This document shows positions 16,015 through 56,014 of a DNA stretch of 64,000 bases, piece after piece; position 1 is the stretch's first letter; each line of letters opens with the position of its first letter. Under the pieces are notes generated by a model. It did not search any database, had not been told where the DNA came from, and saw only the letters and a program-made list of their open reading frames with translations. A program made the position numbers and the translations under genes. This DNA is from Eledone cirrhosa (Eukaryota), in NCBI GenBank assembly GCA_964016885.1, contig CAXHJY010001687.1, positions 1 through 64,000 of the forward strand, in the 5' to 3' direction.

Positions 16015-16080
16015 TATTTCATTATATATATTTCGGGGATATCATATTAACAATATGCTATGCCTTCCTCAGACAAAATA
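16015..16080 (-). ncRNA. Type I hammerhead fold (left palindrome arm)
   Basis: Reverse complement of 16236-16301. Confidence 0.6.
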
Positions 16081-16235: not shown

Positions 16236-16301
16236 TATTTTGTCTGAGGAAGGCATAGCATATTGTTAATATGATATCCCCGAAATATATATAATGAAAT
16301 A
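16236..16301 (+). ncRNA. Type I hammerhead fold (right palindrome arm)
   Basis: tattttgt-CTGAGGA-aggcatagcatattgttaatatgatatcccc-GAAA-TATATA-TA-atgaaata. Helix II has three mismatches, including A-C at the closing pair. Confidence 0.6.
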
Positions 16302-26294: not shown

Positions 26295-26659
26295 TACGTA
26301 TCAGTTTAGCGGACGCTTATTATAGCGCCCGCTTTGTTCGTTTGTAAATAAACTGAACAGCCTGTATTTATGCCGCACGGTGTTAAGGCAACCACGTCAC
26401 CTTTTTGTTCAACACTGGCACAGGAACGATGTACTAGTTTCAAGCTTGTTAGCTATCATCAGCACCGTATACCCATCTGCCAGATAGTTGAACGTTCGAA
26501 AGTATATACTTTCCTTATGAAAATTAACGGCTGAGCAGCCTAATTTGCATATCGAGTGAGTTAAATCGGTCAGGCGCAACGAAAACGATGAGTTGTAAAA
26601 AAAAATGAAAACGAAATTTCATTTCTCACTCTTAGTACGGCACTTACTTAAATGTTAAG

Positions 26660-37188: not shown

Positions 37189-39361
37189 ATCATCATCATC
37201 ATCATCATCAACGTTTAACGTCCGTGTTCCACGCTTGCATGGGTTTGGACGGGGGTAGTCCCACTTGAGGCAAGAGTGGTTGTCTTGCTCGCATAGGACT
37301 GTCTGGCGGGTTTTCTACAGTTGGATGCCCTTCCTAACACCAACCACATTTACAGTGTGGGGCTGGGAGGTTTTTACCGTGTTGCCTACACGGCCACATT
37401 ACAGCGTGGACTGTCTGGCGGGTTTTCTACAGCTGGATGCCCTTCCTAACACCAACCACATTTACAGTGTGGGGCTGGGAGGTTTTTACCGTGTTGCCTA
37501 CACGGCCACATTTACAGCGTGAACTGTGTGTTTTTTTTTGTCGTGACACCTACACGATCTCATTTGTTTCGGCCTGGATGTTGTGGGACCAACATAACTG
37601 TACATTGAAAGGGGCGGTGTGGATGGGGTGGAGGTGGTGGAACGGGGGGGTGTTTTGATAGAGATGCCTACTGACTGTAGTAGGTTTTTACTTTGTATTT
37701 AGGTAAGGCGGGTCTTCTCTGTTACTGAGTACCGCCAAAGGTCTCGGTCCAGTGACATTGTCTTGGAGAAGAGTAAGTGTGTGAGGTCGGAGTTTATCAG
37801 CTCGTCCCAGGTTTTTCTCGGTCTGCCTACTCCGTGGCTACCGTCTATCTTTATTGCCCTGCAATTTGTTATACAGCTATCGACTTTCATGCGCATCACG
37901 TGTCCATACCAACGTAGCCTTCTCTCGAGTAAACAACATCTGATCCTTTTTATTTTTAATTTTTTCCTTATTTTGTTTATGCTTTGCCGTTCACGTATAT
38001 TACTGTTACACATCCAGCGGAGCATGCAAGCTTCGTTCCTCTCTAGTCTGCGTATATCCTCTGTACACAATGCCCAGGTCTCACTGCCATGCAACATTGC
38101 TGTTCGTATGCAGGCATCGTACAACCTGCCTTTCATTTTTAGGGAGAACCCTTTAGCAGCTAATAGTGGTATAAGCTCTCTGAACTTTTTCCAACCAGTT
38201 CTGACTCTAGCTACTGTACTTTCAGAGCACCCTCCCCCACTGCTGATTTTATCACCCAGATAACGGAAACTGTCCACTATTTCTATAGAACCCTCTGCGC
38301 AATTGAAAGAGCTAGTATTTTGTGGGCACTTGCTGCTACTTATTGCACCGGAGCACCGGCCACATGTAAAATCTATGTTCTTAGTTAGCTTACCTGTGAT
38401 CCCACTACATCTTTTATGCACCCATACTTTGCATTTAGGACATAAAATGGAGTTTCTACCTACGCCTTTCCTACACGACCATTTCCCAGAAGGGACCGCC
38501 GCCTTATTTTCTTTCCTATAAACTAGAACTTTTGTCTTAGCCAGGTTAATTTTAAGGCCTTTTGATTCTAGGCCGTGCTTCCATGTTTGGAATTTCTTCT
38601 CTAGCTCGGCCATTGATTCCGCTATGAGTGTCAGGTCGTCTGCGTATAGGAGTTCCTATGGGCAGCCTGTCTTGAACTCCTCTGTTATAGCCTGAAGGGC
38701 AATAATAAATAGTAGGGGGCTGAGAACAGAGCCCTGATGGACGCCAACTTTTACGCTAAACTCTTCACTATATTCGTTGTTAATTCTAACCTTGCTGACT
38801 GTTTCTTTATACATGGCTTGTATAGCCCTCACAAGCCATTCGTCAACGCCTAGTTTTCTAAGAGCCCACCAGATAATGGAGCGGGGGACTCTGTCGAAGG
38901 CTTTCTCCAAGTCGACAAAAGCTAAGTAGAGGGGTTTACCTTTAGCTAGGTACTTCTCCTGTAGTTGTCGTACAATGAAAAGAGCGTCTGTGGTACTTTT
39001 GCCTGACACAAATCCGAACTGCATTTCATCTAGATCAATTCTCTCTCTGATTAGTTGCGCTATTACTTTTTCCGTGACCTTCATGACCTGGTCGATTAAT
39101 TTAATGCCTCTATAGTTACTCCTATCTAGGGCATCTCCTTTTCCCTTATAGCAGTTAACGATGATGCTGCTACGCCAGTCCTTCGGAACAACCCCATTCT
39201 GTACGACTTGGTTAACTATGCGGGTGACCATGGTGTGTCCCACCGTGCCAGATGCCTTCAGCATCTCAGCAACTATTTCCGAAGGCCCAGCCGCCTTACC
39301 CGTCTTCATATCCTTGATTGCCTTACTTATTATACTCCCCTCGACTAACACTGCTGGTCCA
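37189..39361 (-). mobile_element. RTE subfamily B, 5'-truncated, one stop, duplicated 3' UTR module
   Basis: ORFs 38656-39351 and 37699-38613; (GAT)n tail. Confidence 0.95.
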
Positions 39362-39483
39362 TATATATATGTATATATATATATATATATATGTATATGT
39401 ATATATATATGTATATGTATATATATATATGTATATATATATGTATATATATATATGTATATATATATGTATATATATATATG

Positions 39484-39514
<31 letters not shown>

Positions 39515-39649
39515 GTATATATATATGTATATATGTATAAACAATTAAGTTAAAGTGTACATCTATATATGTATACGGAAGTATTAGTATGCATATAAAT
39601 ACACATATGTATACATATGTACATGTACCGAGTTTTTCACTAGACACTT

Positions 39650-40110
39650 TACAGTGAGTGTCCAGCTAGTCTGTATGTAAACAAACAGACGAACCGGGTT
39701 TTAAAGTCATACGAGTTTTCAAGGAAACACACTTCCTCTATTCTGCAGAGAGCCAGACAGGAATATTGGACTAGTTTCGATGTTATTACATCTCATCAGC
39801 AATATATACCTATCTTTCCGGCTTCTCTGGAGAATTGTAAAAGCACATATCGTTATATGCTTTTTCTATGAAAATCAGTAGTGGGCAGACTAATTTGCAT
39901 AGAACGTGAGTCATTCTCTCTGGAGAATAGATGAAGTGTGTTTCCTTGAAAACTCGTATGACTTTAGCTATTTCATTGTAAAAGACTGCCTGAGATTTGA
40001 ACTCATTATTATTGATTTATCACTGCTCCTTCATTGAGCTGAATTTAGCCCCATACAAACGGCTGTTATTTCTAGCAGCACGTGTATGAGACTAGCTAGA
40101 CACTGGATAA
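39650..40110 (-). mobile_element. Family 3 hammerhead/octamer element enclosed in nested inverted repeats
   Basis: 51-bp inverted repeat 39702-39752/39916-39966 and an outer ~15-bp inverted repeat (gtgtccagctagtct/agactagctagacac); homologous to 26295-26660. Confidence 0.72.
39763..39805 (-). ncRNA. Minimal type I hammerhead ribozyme, fully canonical core
   Basis: Minus strand: atattg-CTGATGA-gatgt aata acatc-GAAA-CTAG-TC-caatat. Helices I and II are perfect, G-C closes helix II, GUC cleavage triplet. Confidence 0.9.
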
Positions 40111-40181
40111 CCGCGTGAAATTACCTCGTGCGCTAAACAGTCTTTCTAAATATTTTGAAGTGGAACATACCAATTTTTATA

Positions 40182-40308
40182 GTGCTTGCTGAGGAGATCA
40201 AAATGCGGTATTTCTTCCACTTTTTCATTATTCAAAACATTTGGATTTTAAGGTTTAAACCTGTCTACGGAACAGGTTTGATTTTGTAATTTAAATTTGT
40301 CCAAGCAC
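40182..40308 (+). ncRNA. Degenerate type I hammerhead with long helix III (GAAA appears as AAAA)
   Basis: gtgcttg-CTGAGGA-g...c-AAAA-c-(long hairpin incl. aaacctgt/acaggttt)-GTC-caagcac; perfect 7-bp helix I. Confidence 0.5.
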
Positions 40309-40535
40309 CACGGCCATTGCCAACACGATTTGTTTTTGTTGATTTATTATCATAAGTCAAGATAGGCAAACTGTAATATTATTATTAGTATATTTCAATC
40401 TAGCTAACTTGGTCATTTACAATACAAACATGAATATGTTGGTATTTGTGTTTATCAAATATATTAATTTATATTAACCTGTATATATATATATATATAG
40501 ACATGTATGTATATATATATATGTATATATATAAT

Positions 40536-41789
40536 TATTTAATACAATAAGAGATAGTTTAAAGCTAAACTCTGACTGGTAACCATCTCACTCAACAAAC
40601 ATTAGGTTATATTAAAATATAAACCCAATTTAAGTGTTTGGGGTGCTAACAATATGTATAATGTGGAAAAACCAGTTGTATTATTTTATGAGATATAATT
40701 AAAGTTAAAGTATATCTCTCTTTCCAAACAATTGTTTCATTATAAGTTTTCTACAAGTTTGGGAGAATGTTTCCAGTTTATGTAGAAGCCTAATATATAT
40801 TCATGTAAGAATATATTTAGGTGGGCACTTATAAATCATCAGTGGAAGCCCATTAAACATTGATATAAGAAAACAATTTCTTACCGCTGTCAAAAATCAT
40901 GTCCGTAAAGTTGCTCTCTCTCACCTCGAATGACCGCCAAATTTGAAATTCCAGCAGTTTTTGACTGAGGAAGTATCATAGCGACACGAAGCGGGAAGGG
41001 GAGACAACCCACGATCCACGAAATGAGGAAAAAAAATAATATACACGCGGGTTAATTAGTTTTTTTGAAAACATTATCGATCCAACGTGTTTAAGAACTC
41101 AATTGAAAATAAAAAAAATAAAAAAATAAATATATGCTTGTATAAATTACACATGCATATAGATATTTTCTTAGGCTAAAACAGAGGTTGTACCCGAATA
41201 AGAATCGCTTCTCATAACCGCAGTAAATGCAGAAAGTTATGCTATAAAGGGCAAATGGGAATATAATTCTCCGGCCGAATTATTAAGAGTAAAATATAAA
41301 ACACATGCGGGTTAATTAGTTATTTCAAAACCAATATTAATTCCTCGTGTATAGAACTCAATTAATAAAAGAAAATAAATACATATATGCATGTAATTAT
41401 ATACGTAGGCATATATATATATTTTCCTAGGCTAAAAAACAGAAGTTACAACCAAAAAAAGCCACAATATTTCACAACAGTAATAAATACGGAAAGTCAA
41501 ATTCATAAGGTACCTGGAAATAAACACCTCTGGCCAATCAAGAGTAAATATTTAATACAATAACAGAGATAGTTTAAAGCTAAACGCTGACTGGTAACCA
41601 TCTCACTCAACAAACATTAGGTTATATTAAAATATAAACCCAATTTAAGTGTTTGGGGTGCTAACAATATGTATAATGTGGAAAAACCAGTTGTATTATT
41701 TTATGAGATATAATTAAAGTTAAAGTATATCTCTCTTTCCAAACAATTGTTTCATTATAAGTTTTCTACAAGTTTGGGAGAATGTTTCC
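40536..41789. repeat. ~240-bp near-identical direct repeat (40536-40774 and 41549-41789) enclosing a diverged ~255-bp tandem dimer (41040-41548)
   Basis: Direct comparison; both dimer units begin with gcgggttaattagtt. Confidence 0.88.
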
Positions 41790-52860: not shown

Positions 52861-53287
52861 TCTGTTATTGCTCTCTAGGTTAGGGTTTTGGACTCACAAT
52901 CATAAAATTGTGGATTCAGTTCCTGAACTGAGCAGTATATTGTGTTCTTGAGCAAGTTGTTTCATTTTATGTTGCTTTTCGTGATAACATGGGGCTCCTA
53001 TAATTAAAAATCACAAGAAACCTCCTATGAGATAATCCCTGTAGGAGGTCAGCTAAACCTGCATAGGTGTGAACTGTAAAACATGATGGTACTAGGATCT
53101 TTATCATTAAAATACCTTCCATGGGGTACAGCTTTGTAGGAGGCCAGCTAAACCTCCCGTAGGTGTGAGTTGTTAACTATGCATTACTTTTTATTTTGTA
53201 GTTTATAGAATTTCTTACAGAAAACCAAATTCATTAAATTAATCTCATATTTTTGTATTTTTTAGTTTCAGTCACTGGATATAAGCA

Positions 53288-54296
53288 ATGACCACTATTA
53301 CTGAAAGAAAATTTTTAAAAAATCTTAGCACACCTGCTGGGGATTTACGTTATGAAATTGAAAGATTATTGACGTTTTTTGAAAATATTCATCCAAAGTT
53401 AACATCTGTACAACTCTCTGGAAATGGTTATTATTACGATACGACAGCAGAAAAAATAATGTGCTATTTCTGTAAAACTGTAGTTAAGTTTTCAGATTCC
53501 AGTTTCAAACATGATCATTCGTGTAGATATAAAGTTGAGAGTTTTCCAGTATATGTATATGATGAAGCAGATGATGAAAATGCTGCAGCTTTTAATGCTC
53601 AGAGCACTGAGATCCAAACTGATTCTGCAATGCCAACTAATACTGAAAAAGTTATTAATTCAAATAAGAATGAAATGCTTGATATGCAAAAAAGACTGGA
53701 TACCTATAAAAATTGGAACAAAAATGTGCCAGTAACACCCACAGATCTTGCCAAGAATGGATTTTATTACTTAGGTTATGGAGATGCTGTTAAATGTGCA
53801 TACTGCTCTGTCCAATTGCGCAACTGGAAAGAAAATGATGATGTCCATAAAGAACATACACGTTTTAGTCCGAAATGTCCAAATTTAGAATCTTTTATGA
53901 AAATGGATTTGAAATACGAACTGAATCGGATAAAAAGTTTTGTCAAATGGACGACATCTTACCCATTAAAAGCTAAAGATTTGGCAGCTAATGGTTTCTA
54001 CCACAAGGGGCCTGCAGATAATGTCTGTTGTATTTTTTGCAAATGTGAAATCAATAATTGGAAAGCAGGTGATAACATTAAAGAAAAACATAGGTCAGTT
54101 TCTCCGAACTGCCCTTTCTTGTGTGAGAAATTGGTAGGTAATGTACCAATACAAGCTCGGAGTAACATTCTATTTGACCGCCCTATACATCCAAATCTTG
54201 CTTTGTTAAGTGAACGCCTTAAAACATTTTCTTTGTGGCCAAAGGATAAAAAGCAAAAACCAGAAGTTTTAGCAGAAGCTGGTTTTTTCCATAATG
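53288..54296 (+). CDS. IAP (BIRC/cIAP/DIAP2-like) first coding exon: atypical BIR, two canonical BIRs, first half of a fourth BIR
   Basis: KRLDTY...GFYY...CAYC-x16-H-x6-C; NRIKSF...CIFC-x16-H-x6-C; ERLKTF...LAEAGFF. Polypyrimidine-AG acceptor at ~53265 upstream of the ATG; phase-1 donor G|gtaggt at 54296. Confidence 0.92.
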
Positions 54297-56014
54297 GTAG
54301 GTGAACACAATTTTTATGTTTTTGTCGTTGATTAATTTTTTTTATAATATTAATTCCAATTTGCTAAATTGTATAACATGGTTTTGAATATTTTGCATAT
54401 TGTTGATAAATATACATCTTCCCCATTGACACAATAACTAAAAGATTTGAGTAGATAATCAAATCATTAACCTTATCCTTATGTCTAGTGTGTTCCTGAA
54501 AATTTAGAATTACCCTTTATTTATTTTATTCACTTACAGGAAACAAAAATATTAATCAGATTAATGAGCTACAGAACAATCGGACTTTTATTTTTATCTT
54601 TTGAGTTTATATTTACTTTGCTGCAGTTGTTGTTGCTATTATTATTTAACTTCAGCTTAGACGTGATTGAGCAGCTCTATTATCATGGGCATTCAGATTA
54701 TACTGTCCTGTTTTGTTTTTTTTTCCATTTTGAAAGACAGTAGAACATAATTTAGCTGCTGTTTCTAGCAATGTGAATGACTACAGAGGCTATACTATGT
54801 TTTTAATCTTTAGAATTGCCATCTTCTGGTGCAATTTCTGATGAATTTGTACAACACATATTTATAAACCCGTAACTCCTGATGGAATTATAGGGGTGCA
54901 TATTGACATATGGCATTTTTTAACCTGGTAGAGCACATTTCCTCTTCGGTCTGAACACAGCAGATTCCTTCCAGAGAAGGATATAAAATGAAAGAAGGAA
55001 GTTAAAATGAGATACAGAGGAAGAATCGACCCCAGTACTAGACTGGTACTTTTTTATCAACTGCAAAAGGACGAAAGGCATGGTTGACCTTGGCGGGATT
55101 TGAATTCAGAGAACAGAAAGCTGGAACAAATACTGCAAAGCATTCTATCCAACCTTCTAATGACTCTGTCAATTCACCACATTTGTACATCATACATCAA
55201 GGTAAAATTAAAAGACTGAGCAATATTTGTTACTCTTTTACCTGTTCCAACCATCCAGCTGAGGCCATGCTGGGGTACCACCCTAGAGATTAGTATAATT
55301 GATGATGATTTATTGTCAGAAATGTAATGAGAAAAGATTCATTTTGAAAAACTGTAGAAGTCTCATATCAGTTAAGAAATGTAACACAAGTCTACAACAG
55401 TTTTTTCAGAACCATCACAACAAATAACTATAACCCTATGTTAGTTGAGAACCGATTTACATTTTCTGTAAATCAGAAATCATTCCAGTCTCATACATCA
55501 TTTGCTTCAACATTTTCAAAATTATTCCACTACCATTTGTCTTTAAATCATATTGTCATCTGACTCAGTGAGTAAAAGGTCTCAAAGCAATACATTTCAT
55601 TACTTTATAACTATCTACGCATGCTAGCTTCACAGTCTATAATATTATTATCATCTTTACATTAATTTTTCCATGTTTGCATAGGTCCTCTCTAACACAG
55701 CATTCAGTCAAGTAAAGGACGTGACAACCTCTTTACTGCTGGTATCACAATAGAATGCACCCAGTACACTCTGTAAAGTGACTGCCATTAGGAAGGATGC
55801 CCAGCTGTATAAACCATCATTTTATCATCTCCTTTGTGAGGTTCAATATCCTGAAATCACATTTCATCATTTGTTGTCATGTCTTTCTTGTTTTTTTTTC
55901 TTCCCGATTTCTTATTACTTCTCTGATCAATGGGCATCATCTATTTGCATTCCATGTCTGTACTAACACAGTTTTATCTCTTGCACATCATAATCATCAT
56001 TATTTAATATCCAC

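What the first reader, a model, noticed from the sequence alone, without database searches (positions are those of the whole stretch)
39650..40110. Canonical minimal hammerhead caged in nested inverted repeats
Seen: 39763-39805 (-) has every core nucleotide, perfect helices I and II and a GUC site. It sits with an octamer (39893-39900) in the ~160-nt loop of a 51-bp inverted repeat (39702-39752/39916-39966), with a further outer inverted repeat. Inference: a rod-like, highly self-complementary RNA like retrozyme circRNAs; the best candidate for an active ribozyme here.
Basis: partly seen in the sequence, partly recalled or inferred. Interest (0 to 1): 0.75.

Follow-up and report, generated by a model that had tools for sequence, protein, structure and literature searches.

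The report
Hammerhead retrozyme fused to second repeat
This is one broken copy of an abundant, non-coding repeat that carries a hammerhead motif predicted to cut its own RNA and that is likely pasted around this animal genome by Penelope-type jumping genes; the nested inverted repeats are scars found at this one locus, where it is fused to a second repeat family, and not a conserved RNA cage.

Summary
The hammerhead, octamer and both inverted repeats are present as described. The rod-like "cage" reading is not supported.

The hammerhead belongs to a 470-nt tandem unit (family A; 1,463 exact core copies) that fits the metazoan non-LTR retrozymes. Its copies sit in (TA)n as head-to-head arms with two fixed 3' ends, the footprint of Penelope-like elements (PLEs).

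The window copy is one truncated arm (39538-39915, minus strand). The 51-bp repeat is the stump of its second arm. That stump is fused to a different family, B (39967-40484), and the junction occurs only here and in one duplicate locus. The outer repeat is a 15-nt motif that A and B share.

Stem III is a loopless palindrome, so a lone copy is predicted to cut poorly; tandem copies are better test objects. The octamer matches the upstream element of host U6 genes and recurs before hammerheads about 31,200 times.

The A-B fusion most likely came from two insertions joined by a deletion; a single two-template event is not excluded. This scan found the two-armed layout, the promoter block and hybrid copies before, on other DNA of this genome. 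No RNA data were available.

The parts
39538..39915 (-). Family A arm: unit positions 1-377 of the 470-nt retrozyme unit, 5'-truncated, 3' end at the family's 'short' end beside (TA)n
   Evidence: 98.4% to reference unit L030:1501-1970; 99.7% to L006
39756..39814 (-). Type I hammerhead with bulged, extended helix I; minimal motif 39763-39805; predicted cut 3' of the C opposite 39769; loopless palindromic stem III at 39770-39775
39890..39904 (-). Octamer block (octamer 39893-39900); 15 nt identical to the sequence about 80-66 nt upstream of a host U6 gene; inferred snRNA-type promoter element
39852..39860 (-). TATA-like box about 42 nt after the octamer start, similarly placed in families A, C, D, E (inferred promoter part)
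   Evidence: offsets counted by eye
39916..39966 (+). Inverted 51-nt piece of family A (unit positions 163-213): stump of the second arm; makes the inner inverted repeat with 39702-39752
39967..40484 (+). Family B arm: positions 1-518 of a different 547-nt tandem unit, 3' end at B's 'short' end beside (TA)n
   Evidence: 96.9% to reference unit L066:954-1500; 225 exact copies of a 35-mer
39657..39671 (-). 15-nt motif in A (unit 244-258) shared with B: left arm of the 'outer' inverted repeat
40090..40104 (+). Same 15-nt motif in B (unit 124-138): right arm of the 'outer' inverted repeat
40189..40244 (+). Degenerate hammerhead-like core of family B (weak helices); the GAAA is mutated in this copy
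39360..39537 (.). (TA)n-type tract, left target
40485..40530 (.). (TA)n-type tract, right target

Best explanation
The hammerhead lies in a 5'-truncated arm of a 470-nt non-coding tandem repeat family that is likely copied into (TA)n tracts by Penelope-like reverse transcriptases, and the 51-bp inverted repeat is the stump of this insertion's second, opposite arm, likely cut short by a deletion that fused it to an older copy of a second repeat family. Shown: the family, its tandem and head-to-head layout, two fixed 3' ends, the (TA)n targets, and that both junctions are unique to this locus. Inferred life cycle: tandem copies are transcribed from the internal octamer-TATA block; neighbouring hammerheads pair their palindromic stems and cut unit-length RNA; uncut multimers or circles are reverse-transcribed from both ends of a PLE-made break; the two cDNAs join head to head. 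Inferred for this locus: B inserted first, A inserted later in the adjacent (TA)n, and a deletion removed A214-446 and what lay between. The solitary window copy is predicted to be a weak ribozyme and probably a dead end.
For: Family: 1,463 exact copies of the 31-nt core, control 0; tandem period 470; core intact in 57 of 58 units; helices I and II kept with different sequences in 4 of 4 families examined. PLE footprint: in a position-ordered sample of 35 insertions, 22 of 22 two-armed insertions with both ends readable have one short (372-378) and one long (432-446) end; the two arms of one insertion differ at 45 of 4,642 sites (1.0%) against 2,310 of 62,112 (3.7%) between insertions (14 insertions); target duplications of 13, 16 and 9 nt at 3 non-microsatellite sites; the genome holds RT + GIY-YIG elements, some with hammerheads behind the ORF. 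Inverted truncated copies, a one-sided tail and microsatellite bias are described for PLEs (PMC8557442); nicking and extension of both strands with two RT start sites was shown in vitro (PMC11167929). Two events: the window has short + short ends; B's best copies have a median nearest-neighbour distance of 1.5% (0 of 13 identical) against 0.3% for A (10 of 21 identical); arms with non-canonical ends elsewhere are fused to various neighbours, including ordinary LINE fragments.
Against: No family A unit was found as the terminal repeat of an autonomous PLE among the GIY-YIG loci examined (its output was partly cut), so the enzyme donor is unidentified. 0 of 54 5' ends fall exactly at the ribozyme cut and 1 of 54 lies within 3 nt, so cleavage leaves no mark in these copies. 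The nearest-neighbour model puts the double hammerhead 13.5 kcal/mol above the minimum fold and helix I at only about 0.3 probability. In Xenopus only 1 of 9 predicted dimers cleaved (10.64898/2026.07.22.740005). The age gap between the two arms is weak: about 1 private change in 428 nt of A against 4-6 in 518 nt of B, with B sampled more thinly (21 rows against 114). A short + short pair also occurs in an A-only locus (L013), and L264 has the window's layout with an autonomous PLE as partner.
Confidence: 0.8

Rival explanations
1. Same family and enzyme, but the A-B fusion arose in one integration: one reverse transcriptase copied A from the left end of the break while the other started on B RNA and jumped to A (or the left cDNA snapped back for 51 nt) before the ends joined.
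For: A and B use the same targets and similar end sequences. Both outer ends are canonical and point outward into (TA)n. The junction has only about 1 nt of exact microhomology. L264 shows arm / 41-nt inverted piece / autonomous PLE in the same orientation. The lizard PLE protein is predicted to be a dimer (PMC11167929).
Against: Short + short ends break the 22 of 22 rule. Normal arms are more alike within an insertion than between insertions. B looks older than this A subfamily. No A-B fusion was seen in 35 A or 23 B insertions. Similar fusions join arms to LINE fragments, which use another enzyme.
Confidence: 0.25
2. One reading: the nested repeats form a conserved rod-like RNA that cages an active monomeric hammerhead.
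For: The minus strand folds far better than shuffles (z -13.1) and the 51-bp stem does close around the ribozyme in that fold.
Against: The repeat exists only at this locus and its duplicate. The outer repeat joins two families. The plain unit already folds at z -10.1 and is branched. A transcript starting behind the TATA-like box would not include the inverted piece (inference from the coordinates).
Confidence: 0.03
3. Family A is a satellite amplified at DNA level (unequal crossover) from a PLE terminal repeat, and the hammerhead is a passive relic.
For: Long arrays exist. The 2026 preprint discusses this route. 5' ends ignore the cut site.
Against: Most insertions are dispersed, short, head-to-head, with fixed 3' ends and target duplications. 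Helices and the octamer are kept across four diverged families.
Confidence: 0.1

Closest known systems
Metazoan non-LTR retrozymes (Cervera and de la Pena 2020, PMC7229834; Li, Clavereau and Pollet 2026, 10.64898/2026.07.22.740005)
   Same: Non-coding, low-GC tandem units with one type I hammerhead each; weak palindromic helix III as in axolotl HHR_Amex1; co-occurrence with PLEs.
   Different: The unit is 470 nt, longer than the 170-400 nt RNAs of the 2020 paper but inside the 51-972 bp range of the preprint. Two-armed insertions with fixed ends and an internal octamer-TATA block were not in the parts of these papers that I read. RNA circles and cleavage are untested here.
EN+ Penelope-like elements (PMC8557442; PMC11167929; PMC4209133)
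   Same: Partial tandems, inverted 5'-truncated copy, one-sided tail, AT/(TA)n targets, type I hammerhead.
   Different: No ORF. The two ends lie about 70 nt apart (about 80 in B) against the 30-40 bp tail described. The hammerhead has the canonical 6-bp helix I, not the minimal PLE form.
Newt satellite 2 (Coats, Zhang and Epstein 1994; paper not held, known here from a sentence and reference in PMC2220036)
   Same: Hammerhead tandem repeat reported to use an internal snRNA-type promoter.
   Different: Here the match is to the element about 77 nt upstream of host U6 genes plus a TATA-like box, with spacing 3-5 nt shorter than in U6. Transcription is untested.
Plant LTR retrozymes and viroid-like rods
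   Same: Hammerhead and a highly paired RNA.
   Different: Those carry type III hammerheads in LTRs; here type I, no LTR, branched fold.

Membership tests
Type I hammerhead ribozyme | Core CUGANGA, GAAA, NUH with helices I and II | tested here: met
   Rfam HH9 34.9 bits, below gathering 52
Type I hammerhead ribozyme | Stable helix III as a monomer | tested here: not met
   Loopless 6-nt palindrome; A15.1-U16.1 probability about 0 in 6 of 6 contexts. Such forms need dimers (PMC4209133, PMC7229834)
Type I hammerhead ribozyme | Self-cleavage | not testable with these tools
   needs a bench assay
Non-LTR retrozyme | Tandem non-coding units, one type I hammerhead in each | tested here: met
   (met by the family; the window copy alone is a truncated single unit)
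Non-LTR retrozyme | No LTR arrangement; target duplications longer than 4 bp when visible | tested here: met
   tandem and head-to-head layout; 9-16 nt duplications at 3 sites
Non-LTR retrozyme | Expressed as unit-length linear and circular RNA | not testable with these tools
Penelope-like element (autonomous) | ORF with RT and GIY-YIG between pseudo-LTRs | tested here: not met
   no coding ORF in the window copy; arrays consist of the 470-nt unit only
PLE-mobilised non-autonomous element | Inverted truncated arm, one-sided tail, (TA)n target | tested here: met
   22 of 22 two-armed insertions have one short and one long end
PLE-mobilised non-autonomous element | Sequence shared with the terminal repeat of an identified autonomous partner | tested here: inconclusive
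   none seen in the GIY-YIG loci examined (output partly cut); one fusion to a PLE does not prove partnership
Rod-like circRNA / plant LTR retrozyme | Type III hammerhead in LTRs; conserved rod-like fold | tested here: not met
   type I; branched, 10 hairpins; repeat is locus-specific
snRNA-type internal promoter | Match to host snRNA upstream elements at similar spacing | tested here: inconclusive
   octamer-like element at -76 to -78 in 4 of 7 U6 loci, in 0 of 5 U2 loci; spacing to TATA 42-44 against 46-47 in U6

The most novel reading that the evidence does not exclude
The locus records one Penelope-type integration that used two different non-coding RNAs, family A at one end of the break and family B at the other, with a template jump between them. 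That would show that a single PLE enzyme complex mobilises and recombines unrelated retrozyme families in trans, in a genome where about 31,000 hammerhead units carry a borrowed U6-type promoter element.
Probability: 0.25. Interest if true: 0.62.

Novelty: new member of a known kind. Interest (0 to 1): 0.36.

Why it matters
The family matters more. It is young and abundant, with fixed ends, arms that are alike within an insertion, and a promoter-like block. This makes the proposed but unshown route, PLE enzymes copying hammerhead RNA multimers or circles, testable. A proven two-template fusion would give direct evidence of mobilisation in trans. The same family-level picture has already been reported several times in this scan for this genome.

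Tried and rejected
Rfam at gathering threshold: 0 matches in the window.

RNA evidence: no RNA holder listed; five runs hold part of the unit, none on record as RNA, and none was laid, so they are not used as evidence.

Miniature DNA transposon with the outer repeat as terminal repeats: rejected, because both arms are internal to A and B.

5' ends at the ribozyme cut: an apparent cluster at 136-172 came from query bias; the position-ordered sample gave 0 of 54 exactly at the cut.

Folding support for the double hammerhead: none (+13.5 kcal/mol; the model has no tertiary contacts).

Canonical hammerhead in B: not found; only a conserved core with weak helices.

Autonomous partner: 20 GIY-YIG loci plus 18 longer stretches were scanned (output partly cut); no terminal repeat matching A was seen. 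The PLE fused in L264 has a different 3' end and no hammerhead by a strict pattern.

Spread of the A-B fusion as a new family: no, 2 matches only.

Target duplication at the window locus: unreadable inside (TA)n.

Coats et al. 1994: not held.

Paper searches listed no title on two-family retrozyme fusions or on hammerhead repeats in octopus; these were listings only and the library is partial. Supplements of the cited papers were not read and may describe inverted retrozyme insertions.

Full report
Observation. The window is G000:C1714 of a 3.0-Gb animal genome, rich in (TA)n tracts and LINE fragments. On the minus strand, 39805-39763 is a type I hammerhead: helix I of 6 bp, CUGAUGA, helix II of 5 bp with a tetraloop, GAA, a 6-nt palindrome and C17 opposite 39769. 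Helix I extends through a bulge (39809-39814 with 39756-39761). A strict descriptor found no such motif in 30 of 30 shuffles. Rfam HH9 matches at E 7.7e-6 but below its gathering score.

The element. A search of the genome gave 178 matches, mostly to the first 296 nt of the query. These belong to a 470-nt tandem unit, family A (reference L030:1501-1970). The 31-nt core occurs exactly 1,463 times, control 0, and is intact in 57 of 58 units examined. The window holds unit positions 1-377 at 39915-39538, ending at a (TA)n tract. Three further families (C, also at 26438-26462 in the window; D; E) keep helices I and II with different sequences; A, C and E have a 6-nt palindromic stem III and D a longer, non-palindromic one.

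Insertion layout. I fetched the insertions behind the first 100 listed core matches on C1, 35 insertions in 37 stretches. Twenty-two two-armed, head-to-head insertions (in 21 stretches; L233/L234 are a duplicated pair, L241 holds two) had both ends readable, and all 22 have one short end (372-378) and one long end (432-446). Left out of that count were 10 one-armed insertions, 2 with an inner arm fused to other sequence (L237, L264), 1 with a second arm too short for the search (L250) and 1 long array whose far end was not fetched. Inner junctions differ from locus to locus. Arms of one insertion differ by 1.0% against 3.7% between insertions (14 insertions). Three sites outside microsatellites show 13, 16 and 9-nt duplications. 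Of 54 5' ends, none lies exactly at the ribozyme cut, and arms run across it, so the templates were uncut multimers or circles (inference). PLE papers describe the same marks: inverted 5'-truncated copies, a one-sided tail and microsatellite bias (PMC8557442, passages), and nicking and extension of both strands with two RT start sites (PMC11167929, parts 1-2 of 4). The genome has many GIY-YIG hits (150 scored of 10,597 candidates) in RT-linked ORFs.

The inverted repeats. 39916-39966 is unit 163-213 in the opposite orientation, the stump of the second arm. It is followed directly by 39967-40484, positions 1-518 of a different 547-nt tandem unit, family B (225 exact copies of a 35-mer). B has the same layout: among 23 distinct insertions in 30 stretches, 10 of 12 two-armed ones have one short and one long end (read). 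The outer repeat is a 15-nt motif at A244-258 and B124-138 (E 0.031 between the units), brought face to face by the fusion; it was not found in family C loci. The stump-B junction occurs twice in the genome, here and at C5:80152770, a duplicate of the locus that is 98% identical over 4.4 kb.

Folding. The region folds at z -13.1, but the plain unit already reaches z -10.1 and as a circle has 10 hairpins. In all six contexts helix II is near 1.0, helix I near 0.3 and the helix III pair near 0; the minimum fold pairs the core with the palindrome. The inverted piece lowers the unit's own helix I extension from about 1.0 to 0.3-0.8. Hammerheads with such a helix III work poorly as monomers and better as dimers (PMC4209133, part 1 of 4; PMC7229834, passages and Discussion). 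Against this, the energy model puts the double hammerhead 13.5 kcal/mol above the minimum, and only 1 of 9 Xenopus dimers cleaved (10.64898/2026.07.22.740005, parts 1-3 of 5).

The octamer. It belongs to the unit, not to the cage. An octamer 78-100 nt before a hammerhead core occurs 31,200 times, control 7, in at least four families. Four of 7 U6 loci examined have an octamer-like element at -76 to -78, and one shares 15 identical nt with A; 0 of 5 U2 loci have it. A TATA-like box follows at offset 42-44 in the repeats and 46-47 in two U6 genes (counted by eye). This resembles the snRNA promoter reported for newt satellite 2 (seen only as a sentence in PMC2220036). Promoter function is inferred.

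How the fusion arose. For two insertions joined by a deletion (about 0.7): the window has short + short ends; B's best copies look older than A's (median nearest neighbour 1.5% against 0.3%); the B arm has 4-6 private changes against about 1 in the A parts (not significant alone, and B is sampled more thinly); other arms with non-canonical ends are fused to LINE fragments and unclassified DNA. For one event with two templates (about 0.25): both outer ends are canonical and face outward, the junction has about 1 nt of microhomology, L013 shows that short + short can occur in A alone, and L264 has the same layout with an autonomous PLE.

Comparison and verdict. The family meets the sequence criteria of metazoan non-LTR retrozymes and works like a non-autonomous PLE derivative. 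Expression, cleavage and the enzyme donor are untested. It is not an autonomous PLE and not a rod-like circRNA element. Earlier notes of this scan report two-armed retrozymes, the promoter block and hybrid copies elsewhere in this genome; none matched family B by sequence. I had reached the retrozyme and two-arm reading before the first look-up, and the U6 comparison was issued alongside it. Novelty: new member of a known kind. Interest 0.36.

Noticed in passing
window 26438-26462 (-): Intact type I hammerhead of family C (about 490-520-nt tandem unit, octamer 80 nt upstream, same palindromic stem III, GUA site).
   Followed up: partly
window 13807 (+), 16031-16072 (-), 16244-16285 (+): Hammerhead-like cores with long helix II and palindromic stem III; the two near 16 kb form a head-to-head pair. 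Related motifs recur in other loci.
   Followed up: no
L264 = G000:C1:41487900-41493000: Family A arm, a 41-nt inverted A piece, then the 3' part of an autonomous RT + GIY-YIG element: same layout as the window, with a PLE as partner.
   Followed up: partly
L018/L030 = G000:C3:77329600-77333500: Array in which 470-nt and 432-nt units alternate over the last five units, as if a dimeric template had been copied or locally duplicated.
   Followed up: no
L208, L209 (U6) and L188, L190 (U2) upstream regions: A shared CCTCCCTT-like motif about 260 nt upstream of both U6 and U2 genes, a candidate distal element; not seen in family A by eye.
   Followed up: no
L171/L117 (family D) versus U2 locus L189: Family D variants share a short ATCAGTCACT-like stretch with the region about 55 nt upstream of a U2 gene.
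   Followed up: no
window 53285-54304 (+): 339-aa open frame with several repeats that look like BIR domains of an inhibitor-of-apoptosis protein (label recalled, not scanned).
   Followed up: no
window 40532-40774 and 41545-41789: Near-identical 245-nt duplication just right of the B arm; also a 260-nt-period direct repeat at 41031/41291.
   Followed up: no
G000:C5:80146000-80160000: Second copy of the window's locus (98% over 4.4 kb): the window contig may be an alternative haplotype or a segmental duplicate.
   Followed up: partly
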